DNA of 64,000 bases from the human T2T-CHM13v2.0 reference genome, Homo sapiens. The DNA is taken from the NCBI RefSeq assembly GCF_009914755.1, contig NC_060936.1. One strand, written 5' to 3'. Shown piece by piece: positions 10,561 to 19,336 of the stretch. The position numbers were made by a program, and so were the translations under genes. Below the pieces are notes generated by a model. That model was given only the letters and a program-made list of their open reading frames with translations, was not told the DNA's origin and did not search any database. Within the stretch, counting starts at the first letter, position 1; each line of letters begins with the position of its first letter.

Positions 10561-10700
10561 CTACTTGTGCTGAGACGGCTGGTGATAAGGGAAGCACCTC
10601 GTAAGTCCTGGGAGAGTCGGTTGCTGGTGATTCCTCCAGGGAAATATGGTAACTGGTTGCAAGCACTACGCAGCCTCTTCAATTCACTGCCTCAGCAATC
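10561..10700 (-). pseudogene. ADGRD1-like GAIN-region pseudo-exon (IAEAVN*RGCVVLATSYHISLEESPAT/LSQDLRGASLITSRL/HK)
   Basis: Acceptor tttatttccaag|GATT and donor TAG|gtgagt; aligns to recalled [47 protein letters not shown]; in-frame TGA and two 1-nt deletions (140 nt vs 142). Confidence 0.85.
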
Positions 10701-11289
10701 CTTGGAAATAAAAGGGAAATTATTACAAAATGGCAAAGGAGGGCAATCAGCTACAAACTGGGTTTGGAATTTAATATTAAAGTTCAAATTATTGAAAGAG
10801 TGATCTCTTTTGGGTGAAACTTTCAGTGCTGTTATTGAATACCAACTCCACTTAAGCCTCTATTCTGGCACCTGTAGGGGATACCAAGAGAGCTGAAATA
10901 TAATCCTTGACCGCAAATAACAGACACTCTAGTTGAGGCCCAGCAGGAAGGCACAGGCAGCTGTCAAGGAACAGAAAGGGTCAAAGCAATGGGGAACAGA
11001 ATCTAAGCAAAGGAGCAGGCTTCCAGGAAGCACACAGGGACACCCCACAGAGAGAGCACTGGAGCCCCTTGGCCACTGGTTCACTGGGGGACTGGACTCA
11101 GCCAGGGCAGTAGTAGAGTCCAGAGCCCCTGAACAGACAAAGTCCCTCAGCCAGCCCACAGCCAGGCTGTTTAGCAAACATTCCTAATGATTAAATATTG
11201 TAAAATCATCCTTTGGAGTTACCCAAGCTAATGAGTTGTCTGGATTCAGGAAGGTGTCCTTCCCCCCCCACCCCCAGGGCAGAGTCACA

Positions 11290-11420
11290 TGCTTAAAATG
11301 CACATTGCCAGGCCCTCACATTCCCCTTCTGTAGGTCTGGAGGGGGGCTGGACTCTGCACTATTTTCCCAGGTGCTTCTGATGACAGTATCCTGAGGATA
11401 CACTTTGAGAAACGCTAGCC
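11290..11420. mobile_element. MER5-like hAT-Charlie DNA transposon remnant
   Basis: TTAAAATGCACATTGCCAGGCCC...CCAGGTGCTTCTGATG...CACTTTGAGAAAC. Confidence 0.55.
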
Positions 11421-12157
11421 CAGAGCCACTCCTGCAGGAAGAGACAGGACAACCAGCGGTCACAACTGCAGGCATCAACTGGTTCCTGAGGGCTGGCAAG
11501 TGAGCACTGAGGTGTCACAGTGGGTGGGTCACAGGGAGGACCCTGGAGGAGGGGATGAGAAAGGGAAGACTGGCCTCTCCTGGGAAGATGAGCTGCCACC
11601 AAAACCAATTCAGGTGGAGCAAGCCAGCTATGTTCCCCGATGGGCTCCTGCAGGAGATGTGGGTGCTGACACTTGCTATATGAACACTTAGAACAGAAGG
11701 GCCATGAAGTACCAGATTGTCTCACAACACCTTGGAAAAGCAGGTTTAGACCAAGCTGACTCCAGCTGACACTAGGAACCCGATTCTGCCCCACTGATTC
11801 CAGAGATACCGGAAGGAGCTGCTGCTTCTTAATTCCTACCCTGATAGTCACACAACATGAACTTGGCTCCCAAGTCCCCAGGAAATGCGTACCGGATCCT
11901 GAGTGCACAGCACGACCAAACATACCTGCCATGATTCTAACCATTCCTTTTCTCCAAAATGTGGCTTTGCATGAAGAATCGATTAGGAAAATGGAGAGAC
12001 TGATCTCAGCCAATGATGTGCGAGGCGCTTGTGTCAGGGTTGGGGTAGGGAAATCTGACCAATAGCCATTGTTCCTCAGCTAACTTCCTCCCCTCTCTCT
12101 ACCTGACCCTGCCCCCTGCACACCTGGGGCTCAGAGGATGCTGAGGACAGTTCCTCC

Positions 12158-15495: not shown

Positions 15496-15796
15496 GGCCG
15501 GGCGCGGTGGCTCACGCCTGTAATCCCAGCACTTTGGGAGGCTGCGGCGGGCAGATCACGAGGTCAGGAGATCAAGACCATCCTGGCTAACATGGTGAAA
15601 CCCCATCTCTACTAAAAATAAAAAAAAACAGCCAGGCGTGGCGGCAGGCACCTGTAGTCCCAGCTACACGGGAGGCTGATGCAGGAGAATAGCGTGAACC
15701 CGGTAGGCAGAGCTTGCAGTGAGCAGAGATGGCGCCACTGTACTCCAGCCTGGGCAACAGAGAGAGACTCCGTCTCAAAAAAAAAAAAAAAAAAAA
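15496..15796 (+). mobile_element. AluY SINE immediately downstream of the AluS
   Basis: Y-type GAGATCAAGACCATCCTGGCTAAC and GCGTGAACCC...GAGCTTGCAGTG; A tail. Confidence 0.92.
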
Positions 15797-17334
15797 GCGA
15801 GAAGAGGAATATTCAAGTCTTTTCCAAAAATGGGCAGGGAACTTCCCAGAACAAGAGTGCCGCCTTCTTTTTGTGCTTTTATGGTTTCTTCTGGTCACTA
15901 CCATGGCGATCGTCAACTGTCATGGGACTGGTGGGTGTATCATTGAGCGTGGAAATGAGATGATAATGAAGCCTGAGGTCTTTTGAAGCTGTTTGGCTGG
16001 CTATCCTGGTTCTAACCAGTCTCAGCTGGTCTGGTTACAGAGGGAAATTTTTATCGAAGGTGTCCCGTTTCTTAAAGATCAGCAGAGTTAGGGCAGGGTG
16101 GAAATTCAGCTATGTCACATAGGCATCACACCAGGTAACACACCACTTTTGCCAGTAAAGCTCAGGCCCAGCCCTTCTTCGCAGCGACTGGAGAAGCTCT
16201 CTACGTCCTGCTGAGGCTGCTGAGAAGTGAGGATGGAAGCCAGGAGCACCTAGCAGTCATCTCAGCTCCACAGAGGAGATCACTGCCTCCCCGCCTCAAT
16301 ATAATACTGCTTACAGGAAGGAAGGAGAATTCTCTGGTGATGTCATCTGAGCCCTCGGATGAAGCCATGCCAAAAGCAACCTCCTCCTGTTTTACCTAAG
16401 TCATTTTTCAGATGGGTTTTCTGTCACTAGAAATCAAGAGTCATGACTCAGGGTCAAGAGAGGGACTCAAGGTGAGAACCTGAGCAAGGGCGAACCAGGT
16501 CTGGAACCCGGGCCTCTTTCCACCTCCTGCCTGAACTTCCCCTGTTGTTCTGGATGTCAGAACAGCAGGCTTTTTGGCAGGTTAGTGCATGTGGAAATTA
16601 ATAAGCAGTATCAGGGTTTTTAAAAAAATATATGCATTTATTTCTGGTGAAACTAAAACAACTGTTGAAGCAAAGAGGCCAAATTAACAGAACCACAGCT
16701 GCACTGAGTCCTGGGCTGCCCTGCTGGGGCCTGGTGTGTGACATCCCATTGTATTTTCACAGACCCCACGGCGGGGTCGGACAGCCTCCTTACTGCCGTT
16801 GGGGGAACTGAAACCTGGAGAAAGGACAACTGACTTCCCAAGTCCCATCGCTCTTCCTGGCAGAACAAGGATTTGAACCCAGGGCCACCTACCCAAGGCC
16901 ACTGCTAGAAACAGCCATTGGTACAGAACAGGAAGAGGCATCCTTGGGGCTCTCCAAGGACTCATCAGAGAGCCTGGAATTCAGGAGGCTCAAGGTAAAC
17001 GTTTGTGGATGAAATGAGGTAATAAACCTAGAATGTTTGCCACCTAGAGCCTTCTATCATTATCCGTCACATACACCCTGAGACCCCGCCATCCCCAGGA
17101 GAATATTCATCCCGGCGTGTCTCAGGTAGGTTGTCGGTTTCTCCATTAGGGAACAGGTGTTCCAGTAAAATGACTGTTTAATGAAGTTCATTAGGACACA
17201 GCTCTTGCCTGCAGTCCCGATGGCTGTAACAGGAGAGTGGGGAGATGGGAAATGCTGGGAAAGGGGTGCAGATACTAGGGTACCCCCAGGAATGTAGCCA
17301 CCAGACCTGCCCCAGCCCTTCACCCCTCACTGAC

Positions 17335-17588
17335 CAGCAGCAGCTATGAAGTACATGGTGACCTCATCCAGAGGTAGGGCCATCCCTGGATGTTGAACTC
17401 ATCCAAAGCTCCGTTATCATAATGCTGGGTCCAGTCCTGCTGAGATCCCATCACAAGATTGACATCAGGGTCCCCATAGGCATGAGACACTTGCCTTCTC
17501 ATGTCACAGGTGCTCAGGGTCCCATTGGCATAGACTCGCAGACCCTTCTTGGATGTCCACATGGTCTGTACATGAGTCCAGTAGGAGC
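17335..17588 (-). pseudogene. ADGRD1-like pentraxin/LamG pseudo-exon
   Basis: Acceptor gatttcccag|GC and donor CTG|gtcagt. [29 protein letters not shown]...[10 protein letters not shown]...[11 protein letters not shown] then [14 protein letters not shown] after a 1-nt deletion, versus recalled [29 protein letters not shown]...VNLVIGSEQD...YENGAFDEFII...LTPDEIAMYFTAAI. 254 nt. Confidence 0.92.
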
Positions 17589-19336
17589 CTGGGAAATCAC
17601 AAACATCACCATTCTGAGTGCTATGGGAATGAGCCCACGGATACTGGTGTTTCTGCCTTTTAAGCACGTTCCCCTTTCTGAAGAGGATGGGTCATGGCTG
17701 ATCTTGGGGAGTCCTAACGTAGGTCACGTTACAGGCCAGACTTTTCCCCATCCTTTGTGCACAGGAGAGACATTGCCCTTTGCCCACATCCCGCAGTCTC
17801 AAAAGCAGTTCAAACAGTCCTGGCTATTTTAACACAGAGGGACAAACTCAAACACCAACAAGCAAAGGTGATGATCAAAATATCTGAGAACTGGCAGGGC
17901 ACAGGTACTGACCAGTCAAGCTGGAACCAACATATCTATGCTCCCACGCCCAGAACCTGGAACGCAGGGAGGAGGCAGAAGTGAACACGAGGATGTGGTT
18001 TCCATGGTGACAGTGATGCTGACGAGCACTTGAGGGGCATGGGGGCAGCCAGGGTTCAGCCCAGCTGCCGTCATCAGGGGAGAGTAAACCCTGCACACCA
18101 AGCGGTACTGTTCCCAAGAGAAGCTCAAAAATTCTGATTCTTATGTGGGATTTTCTAGTTGGGAGTGTTCACCACTAATTCAAATGTACGACACAAAAAG
18201 CCAATGCACAGGTTGAGGCCGTGCAGGACAGTAAAACCCATCTCTGAGCCAGTCCCTGCTCTGCGTGAGGCATGGGCAATTAGCCCGTCTCTGAGCCAGC
18301 CCCTGCTCTGCGTGAGGTATGTTCGATGACCCTATGTGGAGGGGCCAGGAAGGGCAAGGCCAAGCTCGGCCTCACTGGGGATTCTCCATCAGCGAGCTTG
18401 GCTGTTACTCTTCTGTCCACCCAGAGCACTGTGCTCACCAACAGAGGAATGAACGTCCATCTGACTTCCACGGCAGCTTCTGCCATGAAGGACCCCTAGG
18501 TTTTGTGAGCTTTTATGTACAGACCTTATCATGGACTCGCTGCCGGAAGGAACAGGGAATCTCTTTGGAAGGCACACACCATGGGCCTCTCTGCCAGTCA
18601 CCCTAATCGCCCAGGAATTATATTGGGAATCTTGCTCAGGAATGTGGAACTTTCTGTAGTAATGTTGGGTGTCTGAAGAGAACCTGGGTCCTAAATAGGT
18701 CCAGGTAGAATTGCCCTTGATTCTGGAAGTAGGACCAGCAAGGATCCCTCCAGTATACAGTAAGAAAACATTGCCGAGCAGAACTGTTTTCCATGCTCCC
18801 AACTTCTGGGTGAAAAATTCAGCAAGAGCTTAGCAGAGTTCACCCCAAAATATGTTCTAGGAACCTGCCAGGTGCTGGAAATGGAGTCTGGCCTGCCAGC
18901 TCCAAGCACAGATAGATGGCTCCATCCCAGGATCTCTGACACCAGGTAGCACTTAAACGACACAGACAAGGCACCACTAGCTCTGGGGACGGGGAGACAG
19001 ATTGTCTCTGGCCTCAGGATCAGAGGACAGAGCGAACAAGACCCAGTCAATGAACTGTATGTTGGACAGCCTCTAAGCAATGCCACCTCCCGGCACGGGC
19101 TGGAGAAGGCCCCCTCAGAGCCGGCAGCTTCTGCTGGAGGCGCCTTTCAGACCCCATCGGCCTCCTGTCTTGGTTCCAGGCATGGCAGGGCCTCCCCCAG
19201 AGCCTCCCTGGAACACTGAAAGCCCAATCACCTCCCAGCTGCCCCACAGCTTCAGGCCTCCTACCCCAGCCTCTGACCTCAGCCCTGCAGGTGACCTGGC
19301 CCCCATTCCAAGGAGAGAAGGGAGCCCAGCAGGCAG

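What the first reader, a model, noticed from the sequence alone, without database searches (positions are those of the whole stretch)
10561..18496. Hidden intron-containing fossil of an ADGRD1/GPR133-like adhesion GPCR gene
Seen: three minus-strand segments (17335-17588, 12158-12272, 10561-10700), each with an AG acceptor and two with a GT donor, each with disabling lesions. The ORF track shows only the first one. Knowledge (recalled ADGRD1 protein and exon structure): they match the pentraxin/LamG exon and two GAIN-region exons in the right order and intron phase. Inference: this is a duplicated gene, not a retrocopy. It is more compact than I recall ADGRD1 being (~7 kb for this stretch) and diverged (about 55-60% amino-acid identity in the best exon by hand count). 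That fits an old paralog that may still be intact in other mammals, i.e. a lost adhesion receptor. I do not recall a named human ADGRD1 pseudogene, but I cannot check annotation.
Basis: partly seen in the sequence, partly recalled or inferred. Interest (0 to 1): 0.88.

Follow-up and report, generated by a model that had tools for sequence, protein, structure and literature searches.

The report
Decayed inverted duplicate of ADGRD1 gene
These segments are the worn-down remains of an old, back-to-front copy of the neighbouring adhesion-receptor gene ADGRD1: a dead, intron-containing pseudogene whose surviving splice sites now serve non-coding RNA models, so it is real but fairly ordinary.

Summary
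Window 17588-17335, 12272-12158 and 10700-10561 (minus strand) are remnants of ADGRD1 coding exons 7, 11 and 14.

They are not a compact 7-kb gene. They lie inside a collinear, inverted chain of DNA homology that includes introns. The chain pairs about 157 kb of ADGRD1 (intron 5 to intron 22) with about 98 kb at chr12:131,553,564-131,651,453, which is 372 kb distal to ADGRD1. Substitution identity is about 81% (K2P 0.225).

Only exons 7, 11, 14 and 20 are clearly recognisable; exon 18 is possible. Exons 8-10, 12 and 13 fall in gaps too short to hold them. No 7TM exon was found.

Exon 7 is no better conserved than its flanking intron (74.8% against 74.0%). A tamarin copy of it is equally diverged.

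So this is an unprocessed ADGRD1 pseudogene, roughly 100 million years old by recalled rates, and probably never a working receptor for long. The "lost receptor, intact elsewhere" idea could not be tested and gets no support.

RefSeq does not annotate it as a pseudogene, and the papers I searched do not mention one. Two RefSeq lncRNA models reuse its fossil splice sites.

The parts
17335..17588 (-). Remnant of ADGRD1 coding exon 7 (C-terminal part of the pentraxin/LamG domain). It is 254 bp against 255 in the parent. AG acceptor and GT donor are kept. A 1-bp deletion near 17384 shifts the frame, which then stops at 17346-17344.
   Evidence: tblastn E 8e-21 at 60% identity. nhmmer E 2e-71. 190 of 254 nt identical. 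Genome-wide, the 1.15-kb region around it has only two copies: itself and ADGRD1.
12158..12272 (-). Remnant of ADGRD1 coding exon 11 (GAIN region). It is 115 bp against 118. AG acceptor is kept and the donor GT is changed to GG. It has four indels and an in-frame TGA at 12197-12195.
   Evidence: nhmmer E 6e-7 in 144 kb and 3e-9 within its chain interval. 75 of 113 nt identical. It is not significant at protein level alone (E 5.8; not above shuffles).
10561..10700 (-). Remnant of ADGRD1 coding exon 14 (GAIN region). It is 140 bp against 142. AG and GT are kept. It has four indels and an in-frame TGA at 10681-10679. Its coordinates are identical to exon 2 of the RefSeq lncRNA model LOC105370084.
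   Evidence: nhmmer E 4e-19. Smith-Waterman 66 against a null max of 57. 92 of 139 nt identical. lncRNA exon coordinates.
16828..17918 (-). A 1.1-kb block homologous to ADGRD1 chr12:131026105-131027177: intron 6 end, exon 7 and intron 7 start.
   Evidence: blastn E 4e-133. Flanking-intron identity is 592 of 800, against 190 of 254 for the exon.
18371..19071 (-). Block homologous to ADGRD1 intron 6 (131022667-131023356).
   Evidence: blastn E 4e-18. nhmmer E 1e-17.
24754..25453 (-). Most 5' block of detectable homology, matching ADGRD1 intron 5 (131017663-131018368). Nothing matching ADGRD1 further upstream was found beyond it.
   Evidence: nhmmer E 1.4e-29.
13182..14825 (-). Three blocks homologous to ADGRD1 introns 7 and 9: 14825-14441, 14135-13726 and 13409-13182. 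The 305-bp gap between the first two corresponds to 3.9 kb of ADGRD1 that holds exons 8 and 9.
   Evidence: blastn E 2e-78, 1e-32 and 6e-42. The same three blocks are the only genome-wide matches. No exon 8 or 9 signal in the gap.
10453..12998 (-). Short intron-homology blocks around exons 11 and 14: 12998-12942, 12669-12605, 11967-11764, 11448-11391, 10737-10619 and 10541-10453. The intervals where exons 10, 12 and 13 should lie are only 272, 315 and 653 bp long.
   Evidence: blastn. nhmmer with --max found nothing for exons 10, 12 or 13 in those intervals.
1..25453 (-). The in-window part of the inverted ADGRD1 duplicate. The chain continues to the left of the window, to about chr12:131,553,564.
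   Evidence: A collinear inverted chain of 32 HSPs with 10,792 aligned positions, 80.8% identity and K2P 0.225. Counting all non-overlapping HSPs, 38 are in minus orientation (13,039 bp) against 6 in plus orientation (709 bp).
3309..12516 (-). RefSeq lncRNA model LOC105370084 (XR_007083295.1), with exons 11926-12516, 10561-10700 and 3309-3675. Its first exon contains fossil exon 11 and its second exon is fossil exon 14.
   Evidence: Annotation table.

Best explanation
The three segments are exons 7, 11 and 14 of an unprocessed (duplicated) pseudogene of ADGRD1. It arose when a large piece of the ADGRD1 gene body was copied as DNA, introns included. In this assembly the copy lies inverted, 372 kb distal to the parent.

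Shown:
- Homology to ADGRD1 runs from intron 5 to intron 22 (chr12:131017663-131174881).
- The copy spans chr12:131,553,564-131,651,453, which is window 25453 leftwards to 72 kb beyond the window start.

Since the duplication the copy has shrunk to about 62% of the parental length and has lost most exons to deletion or decay. The survivors carry frameshifts, stop codons and a lost donor site. It encodes no receptor.

Inferred:
- The copy evolved neutrally for essentially all of its life. It was probably incomplete from the start, since no exons 1-5 or promoter were found.
- The duplication is of the order of 100 million years old (plausible range 60-150). That makes it older than the New World monkey split and far younger than the ADGRD1/ADGRD2 split.

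Its only present activity, taken from annotation alone, is as raw material for lncRNA models. Two of these still use the fossil acceptor and donor of exon 14 and the fossil acceptor of exon 20.
For: - Exon matches.
- Intron-level collinear inverted chain: 32 HSPs, 10,792 aligned positions, 80.8% identity, K2P 0.225. It extends to intron 5 and to intron 22.
- Orientation control: 38 minus HSPs (13,039 bp) against 6 plus HSPs (709 bp).
- Three chain segments and the shared intron-14 tandem repeat have no other copy in the genome besides ADGRD1.
- Exon 7 identity is 190/254 against 592/800 for its flanking intron. Pairwise dN/dS is 0.46, with dS 0.56.
- The intervals for exons 8-10, 12 and 13 are too short and are empty.
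- The Pfam 7tm_2 six-frame genome scan lists only true ADGRD1 exons in this part of chr12.
- The fossil exon 7 ORF gets no Pfam hit at E<=1, whereas the parental exon hits Laminin_G_3 at 2e-15.
- Tamarin protein P0001 is 70% identical to the human fossil exon and 55% identical to ADGRD1 exon 7. My hand count on the alignment, over 66 columns: 16 changes shared by human and tamarin copies, 4 human-only, 7 tamarin-only, 7 where all three differ.
- lncRNA exon coordinates coincide with fossil splice sites.
Against: - The 5' limit of the duplication is only a limit of detection. With about 70% identity and many indels, decayed exons 1-6 could be missed, so "incomplete from the start" is not proven.
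- dN/dS of 0.46 on 83 codons cannot separate dead-on-arrival from a short functional phase.
- Identity varies along the chain. K2P is 0.294 for the 10 in-window blocks and 0.201 for the 22 left-flank blocks. One age may therefore not fit all of it; gene conversion, constraint or two events were not distinguished.
- An exon-16-like stretch (L024:5799-5930, E 0.0014) lies out of order, which a simple one-step copy does not predict.
- The repeat mask available to me covered only 11% of the region. Some short HSPs may be old dispersed repeats, and two off-chain ones were.
- No species other than tamarin was seen.
- The dating uses substitution rates recalled from memory.
Confidence: 0.85

Rival explanations
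1. One reading: the copy was once a complete, working third family-D adhesion receptor. It died on the primate lineage and may still be intact in other mammals, making it a unitary pseudogene or lost receptor.
For: - The age estimate allows inheritance by many placental orders.
- Splice sites of exons 7, 14 and 20 are still canonical.
- dN/dS of 0.46 is somewhat below the roughly 0.55-0.6 I would expect for dead-on-arrival, though within noise.
- The copy spans most of the gene, including the 7TM-encoding region.
Against: - Exon 7 is no better conserved than its introns.
- No trace of exons 1-6 or of a promoter region.
- The tamarin copy has diverged about as fast as neutral sequence would.
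- The passages I read of Wittlake et al. 2021 (PMC8584163) report only ADGRD1 and ADGRD2, with one-to-one orthology across vertebrates.
- The length filter of the protein search kept full-length relatives out of reach, so absence was not shown.
Confidence: 0.1
2. It is an ancient vertebrate paralogue, a third ADGRD gene from early vertebrate genome duplications, rather than a copy of ADGRD1 itself.
For: Only the low amino-acid identity: 56-60% in the best exon.
Against: - Intron sequence aligns with ADGRD1 introns over about 11-13 kb at about 81% substitution identity, in order. This is impossible for a split hundreds of millions of years old.
- ADGRD2, the real ancient paralogue, shares 25% identity in this exon and no non-repeat DNA.
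Confidence: 0.01
3. It is a processed retrocopy, or a chance resemblance to ADGRD1.
For: None beyond the weakness of exon 11 at protein level.
Against: - The exons are separated by sequence homologous to the parental introns and keep splice sites.
- E-values reach 2e-71, against a best of 0.092 in the reversed-sequence control.
Confidence: 0
4. The locus matters today as RNA or as regulatory DNA. On this reading the fossil exons are maintained because the lncRNAs LOC105370084 and LOC124903056, or enhancers copied from ADGRD1 introns, have a function.
For: - Exact reuse of the fossil exon 14 acceptor and donor and of the fossil exon 20 acceptor by RefSeq models.
- RefSeq enhancer features at window 13665-13724 and 13775-13864 lie in or beside a block homologous to ADGRD1 intron 9.
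- Some intronic blocks keep 82-87% identity.
Against: - The lncRNAs are computed models (XR_ accessions), and I could see no expression data.
- Exon 14 is only 66% identical to the parent and riddled with indels, which gives no sign of constraint.
- Only one paper mentions either RNA, in a table of suggestive associations.
Confidence: 0.1

Closest known systems
ADGRD1 (GPR133), the parent gene at chr12:130,993,251-131,181,371
   Same: Exon sequence, exon order, intron phases, splice sites and long stretches of intron sequence are shared.
   Different: The copy is inverted and reduced to about 62% of the parental length. It lacks recognisable exons 1-6, 8-10, 12, 13, 15-17, 19 and 21-26. It carries frameshifts and stops. 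It shows no 7tm_2 signal.
ADGRE4P and ADGRF2, the human adhesion-GPCR loci currently counted as pseudogenes (2026 IUPHAR review PMC13197933, passages read)
   Same: They are disabled adhesion-GPCR genes in the human genome from which transcripts are still reported.
   Different: Those are unitary pseudogenes of otherwise distinct family members, with near-complete gene structures and functional orthologues in other species. This one is a far more decayed duplicate of a gene that is still functional. It is not counted among the 33 human loci in that review.
ADGRD2 (GPR144), the other family-D member on chr9
   Same: It has the same domain plan: pentraxin, GAIN, 7TM (from my own knowledge of the family).
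   Different: ADGRD1 and ADGRD2 share only 25% identity in the pentraxin exon. The fossil has no detectable match to the ADGRD2 locus apart from Alu elements.
lncRNAs built on unprocessed pseudogenes (a general class, recalled)
   Same: Fossil coding exons and their splice sites are reused as non-coding exons.
   Different: No evidence here that the RNAs regulate the parent gene or do anything at all.

Membership tests
Unprocessed (duplicated) pseudogene of ADGRD1 | Significant, collinear similarity to several coding exons of the parent | tested here: met
   Exons 7, 11, 14 and 20 lie in order on one strand.
Unprocessed (duplicated) pseudogene of ADGRD1 | Introns retained and homologous to the parent's introns, so not a retrocopy | tested here: met
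   A chain of 32 HSPs, mostly intronic, at 80.8% identity. Exon flanks also align.
Unprocessed (duplicated) pseudogene of ADGRD1 | Disabling lesions and no intact reading frame | tested here: met
   Frameshifts and stops in exons 7, 11 and 14, a lost donor at exon 11, and at least 5 exons deleted.
Functional adhesion GPCR, family D | 7TM domain (Pfam 7tm_2) | tested here: not met
   The genome-wide six-frame scan lists no match in the window or its flanks. Only a weak exon 20 remnant (8 of 22 aa in register) and a possible exon 18 were found.
Functional adhesion GPCR, family D | GAIN domain with GPS cleavage motif | tested here: inconclusive
   Two decayed GAIN exons (11 and 14) are present. 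A GPS-exon-like stretch at L024:5799-5930 (E 0.0014) lies out of order and has a degenerate motif.
Functional adhesion GPCR, family D | Intact pentraxin/LamG domain | tested here: not met
   Only the exon 7 part remains and it is frameshifted. It gets no Pfam hit at E<=1, against 2e-15 for the parental exon. Exon 6 was not found.
Unitary pseudogene (lost gene with working orthologues elsewhere) | A functional orthologue at the syntenic site in another species | not testable with these tools
   The protein search reaches only proteins of 0.55-1.75 times the query length. It returned one 77-aa tamarin fragment. No vertebrate genomes were available.
Segmental duplication in the usual catalogue sense (at least 1 kb at 90% identity or more; recalled definition) | At least 90% identity between the copies | tested here: not met
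   67-87% per block and 80.8% overall. It is too old to appear in such catalogues.

The most novel reading that the evidence does not exclude
The copy is the relic of a third family-D adhesion receptor that was complete and functional in early placental mammals, and it survives intact in some living order.

A second bold reading, also not excluded, concerns how it arose. The fossil (A') and the inverted repeat pair B/B' are arranged as A - B - ... - A'inv - B'inv. That is the layout expected if both are footprints of a single ancient inversion made by staggered breaks. B/B' would then still make the roughly 298-kb interval between them prone to inversion.
Probability: 0.08. Interest if true: 0.6.

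Novelty: new member of a known kind. Interest (0 to 1): 0.3.

Why it matters
- It adds one more adhesion-GPCR-derived locus to the human genome. The field's reviews, in the passages I read, list 33 loci and do not include it.
- It explains the origin of at least two uncharacterised lncRNA models in the gene-poor ADGRD1-SFSWAP interval.
- It shows that this part of 12q24.33 was shaped by large inverted duplications: one very old, and one with stretches that are still nearly identical. That bears on structural variation and on reading association signals in the interval.
- It does not reveal a new receptor, and nothing suggests it affects ADGRD1 function.

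Tried and rejected
Exons not found:
- I searched for further exons by tblastn, by per-exon Smith-Waterman with shuffles and by nhmmer, both overall and inside each chain interval.
- Nothing credible turned up for exons 1-6, 8-10, 12, 13, 15, 17, 19 or 21-26.
- A TM6-like tblastn hit at window 12928-12860 (E 1.4) is out of order and was rejected.
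- A weak exon 23-like peptide match at window -75470..-75598 (E 4.4) has no DNA support and was rejected.

Possible sub-chain rejected:
- Two short off-chain hits, at window 5745-5675 and 3806-3745, looked like a second sub-chain supporting the exon-16-like stretch. They also match other places in my loci, so they are dispersed repeats.

Searches that gave little or nothing:
- PDB sequence search with the fossil ORF: 0 hits.
- Pfam on the fossil ORF: 0 families.
- Protein word search with the fossil ORF: 1 hit out of 1 scored candidate; 2 unnamed candidates were left out by the tool.
- Two genome-wide DNA searches meant to find the ends of the duplication were swamped by a young L1-like element and an Alu, and say nothing.
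- Literature: "ADGRD3" gave 0 papers. Six pseudogene or "-like" names gave 1 paper, which was irrelevant. The three lncRNA names gave 1 paper. GENCODE and pseudogene databases could not be consulted.

Full report
**Where the window lies.** The window is T2T chr12:131,626,001-131,690,000. ADGRD1 lies on the + strand at 130,993,251-131,181,371. Between it and SFSWAP, RefSeq lists only lncRNAs and a few small pseudogenes, and no ADGRD1 pseudogene. Inside the window the only gene model is the lncRNA LOC105370084, on the minus strand, with exons 3309-3675, 10561-10700 and 11926-12516.

**The observation.** I spliced the 907-aa ADGRD1 isoform from the reference using the RefSeq CDS and ran tblastn against the window plus flanks.
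- The pentraxin exon (coding exon 7, aa 196-280) matches window 17592-17330 on the minus strand at 60% identity, with a change of frame; joint E 8e-21.
- Exon 14 (aa 477-523) matches 10702-10625 at 54% identity with an in-frame stop; E 0.024.
- Exon 11 (aa 375-413) matches 12290-12134 in two frames at E 5.8, which is not significant alone.

In a per-exon Smith-Waterman test with 15 shuffles each, exon 7 (206 against a null max of 57) and exon 14 (66 against 57) stand out. Exons 17 and 19 barely pass their null maxima, but on the wrong strand and off the chain.

At DNA level, nhmmer with each exon plus 100 bp of flank gives:

| Exon | E-value |
|---|---|
| 7 | 2e-71 |
| 14 | 4e-19 |
| 11 | 6e-7 |

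The best hit against the reversed sequence has E 0.092.

The lesions are:
- Exon 7: a 1-bp deletion near 17384, followed by a stop at 17346-17344.
- Exon 11: four indels and a TGA at 12197-12195.
- Exon 14: four indels and a TGA at 10681-10679.

**What it is part of.** The DNA alignments ran straight into the introns. I therefore compared the ADGRD1 gene (160 of its 188 kb, annotated repeats masked) with the window and its flanks.
- The result is a long collinear chain in inverted orientation, mostly intronic: 32 HSPs, 10,792 aligned positions, 80.8% substitution identity, K2P 0.225 with a per-block range of 0.13-0.38.
- nhmmer extends it 5' to ADGRD1 intron 5 (131017663-131018368 pairs with window 25453-24754, E 1e-29).
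- A further fetch extends it 3' to intron 22 (131173944-131174881 pairs with window -71488..-72436, 84.5% over 966 bp).
- As a control on orientation, non-overlapping HSPs at E<=1e-4 number 38 (13,039 bp) in minus orientation against 6 (709 bp) in plus orientation.
- Genome-wide searches with three chain segments found only the segment itself and the ADGRD1 locus.
- The tandem repeat in ADGRD1 intron 14 has its only other relative in the copy.

So about 157 kb of ADGRD1 (131017663-131174881) corresponds to about 98 kb at chr12:131,553,564-131,651,453. That is 372 kb distal to the parent's 3' end, with the copy inverted.

**State of the copy.** Using the chain to predict where each exon should be, I searched each interval with nhmmer at full sensitivity.
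- Present: exons 7, 11 and 14, and exon 20 (window -47815..-47885, L026:2115-2185; E 8e-5 in its interval, 0.008 over 164 kb).
- Possible: exon 18 (L023:1255-1406; E 0.011 in its interval).
- Absent: exons 8 and 9 (305 bp left for 3.9 kb of parent), exon 10 (272 bp for 6.5 kb), exon 12 (315 bp), exon 13 (653 bp for 9.7 kb) and exon 16 (1.3 kb for 24 kb).
- Not detected: exons 6, 15, 17, 19, 21 and 22 in their intervals, and exons 23-26 in the last 7.5 kb I held.
- Not detected: exons 1-5 anywhere in the 164 kb examined.

A Pfam 7tm_2 six-frame scan of the whole genome returned 141 matches, but on this part of chr12 only true ADGRD1 exons (the tool scores only the best candidates). The fossil exon 7 ORF has no Pfam hit at E<=1. 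The parental exon hits Laminin_G_3 at 2e-15.

**Parent.** ADGRD1 exon 7 finds the ADGRD2 pentraxin exon at only 25% identity. The fossil exon finds nothing in the ADGRD2 locus, and the only DNA matches there are the Alu pair at window 15184-15804. The copy comes from ADGRD1.

**Was it ever under selection?**
- Exon 7 is 74.8% identical to the parent (190/254) and its flanking intron is 74.0% identical (592/800) within the same alignment.
- The parental exon is constrained, so a neutral copy should if anything show a higher exon identity than intron identity. There is no excess.
- Exons 11, 14 and 20 are 66-69% identical.
- Pairwise dN/dS for exon 7 is 0.46 (dS 0.56, 83 codons). That is near what one neutral branch plus one constrained branch would give, and it is too noisy to exclude a short functional phase.

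The only named protein that the word search returned for the fossil ORF is a 77-aa "hypothetical protein, partial" of Saguinus oedipus. It is 70% identical to the human fossil exon and 55% identical to ADGRD1 exon 7, so it is the tamarin orthologue of the fossil. I counted categories by hand in the three-way alignment, over 66 columns:

| Category | Columns |
|---|---|
| Changes shared by both fossil copies | 16 |
| Human-only | 4 |
| Tamarin-only | 7 |
| All three differ | 7 |

Thirty per cent amino-acid divergence between two primates is about the neutral expectation. The copy was therefore already dead before that split.

**Age.** This rests on rates recalled from memory, not on any call.
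- The K2P of 0.2-0.3 between two copies that both evolve on the human lineage suggests something of the order of 100 million years. So do a transversion distance of 0.082 and the ratio of shared to lineage-specific changes.
- A plausible range is 60-150 million years.
- Alignable blocks are the best-preserved ones, which biases the estimate young. The fast-evolving GC-rich subtelomeric setting biases it old.
- The 10 in-window blocks are more diverged (K2P 0.294) than the 22 left-flank blocks (0.201). I cannot say whether that reflects rate variation, constraint, gene conversion or two events.
- In any case, aligned introns exclude a paralogue as old as the ADGRD1/ADGRD2 split.

**Present-day use.** Exon 2 of LOC105370084 is exactly fossil exon 14 (10561-10700), and its first exon contains fossil exon 11. 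The last exon of LOC124903056 starts at window -47815, which is exactly the fossil acceptor of exon 20. These are computed RefSeq models and I saw no expression data.

**Known or not.**
- RefSeq has no pseudogene here.
- Wittlake et al. 2021 (PMC8584163; passages read) describe family D as ADGRD1 and ADGRD2 with one-to-one orthology from fish to mammals.
- The 2026 IUPHAR review (PMC13197933; passages read) counts 33 human loci, with E4 and F2 as pseudogenes.
- Kuhn et al. 2024 (PMC11039983; passages read) do not mention an ADGRD1 pseudogene.
- Name searches found nothing relevant.
- GENCODE, pseudogene catalogues and paper supplements were out of reach, so an existing entry cannot be excluded.

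**Unexplained.** A stretch resembling the GPS exon (exon 16) lies at L024:5799-5930 on the correct strand (nhmmer E 0.0014, score 14.7, against 7.5 for the control's best). It sits before the copy of the intron-14 tandem repeat instead of after it. It may be chance or a local rearrangement. The two short hits that seemed to support it are dispersed repeats.

**Seen in passing.** The right end of the window and its flank (chr12:131,674,821-131,709,000) have an inverted copy at 131,337,363-131,376,750.
- Identity is 79-97% in the inner part. The outer 9 kb is essentially identical (16,150 of 16,231 bits).
- This pair brackets the roughly 298-kb interval that contains the fossil.
- The layout ADGRD1 - B - ... 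- fossil(inverted) - B'(inverted relative to B) is what an inversion made by staggered breaks would leave (model recalled). However, the adjacency that model requires is not shown: 23 kb of unmatched sequence lies between window 25453 and 48821, and the divergences differ.
- The orientation of the fossil relative to ADGRD1 may therefore be secondary.

**Verdict.** This is a real ADGRD1-derived unprocessed pseudogene that I did not find annotated or described. It is old but not ancient, and I found no evidence that it was ever a working receptor. Interest is modest.

Noticed in passing
window 48821-64000 and L015/L025 (chr12:131674821-131709000), paired with chr12:131337363-131376750 (L030 holds part): A large inverted repeat pair. 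Identity is 79-97% in the inner part, and the outer 9 kb is essentially identical. The pair brackets the roughly 298-kb interval that holds the ADGRD1 fossil, making it a likely substrate for inversion by recombination. It carries the annotated RPS6P20/RNA5SP376 and RNA5SP377/RPS6P21 pseudogene pairs.
   Followed up: partly
L024:5799-5930 (window -4201..-4070), minus strand: A stretch resembling ADGRD1 exon 16 (the GPS motif exon). nhmmer E is 0.0014, above the reversed-sequence control. It is out of order relative to the homology chain, and its origin is unexplained.
   Followed up: partly
L024:3111-4996 (window -6889..-5004): A tandem-repeat array whose only relative in the whole genome is the array in ADGRD1 intron 14 (131075338-131077838), at 72-74% identity. 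The minisatellite was therefore inherited by both copies of the duplication.
   Followed up: yes
L026:2072-2185 (window -47928..-47815) and window 10561-10700: RefSeq lncRNA models LOC124903056 and LOC105370084 use fossil ADGRD1 splice sites: the exon 20 acceptor, and the exon 14 acceptor and donor. No expression data were seen.
   Followed up: partly
window 1-3313, 5028-5386, 8249-9529, 23661-23898, 37654-37992, 47529-48854, 54208-54541, 58999-59593: The window is rich in minisatellites. Examples are a 17-bp unit repeated 196 times that abuts the last exon of LOC105370084, an (AGTGG)n array of 1.3 kb, and a 34-bp unit repeated 39 times at the inner edge of the inverted repeat.
   Followed up: no
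window 13665-13724 and 13775-13864: Two RefSeq "enhancer, active region" features lie in or beside the block (13726-14135) that is homologous to ADGRD1 intron 9. I did not test whether the parental intron carries the same activity.
   Followed up: no
L025:384-1264 (chr12:131700384-131701264): An element of about 880 bp with many 74-81% identical copies, often in tandem and often near chromosome ends: chr1, 2, 4, 8, 11, 16, 17, 19, 22, X, Y and others. The family was not identified.
   Followed up: no
L029:1-2741 (chr12:131546001-131548741): A young interspersed element, 94-95% identical to the 39 other genomic copies listed by the search. It is probably a recent L1 fragment (family name not tested) inserted in or next to the 3' part of the fossil.
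   Followed up: no
LOC105370084 (window 3309-12516): One paper (PMC6893551; one table passage read) lists rs10082903 under LOC105370084 among suggestive SNP-by-sex interactions for circulating leptin, with P 8.68e-6, which is not genome-wide significant.
   Followed up: no
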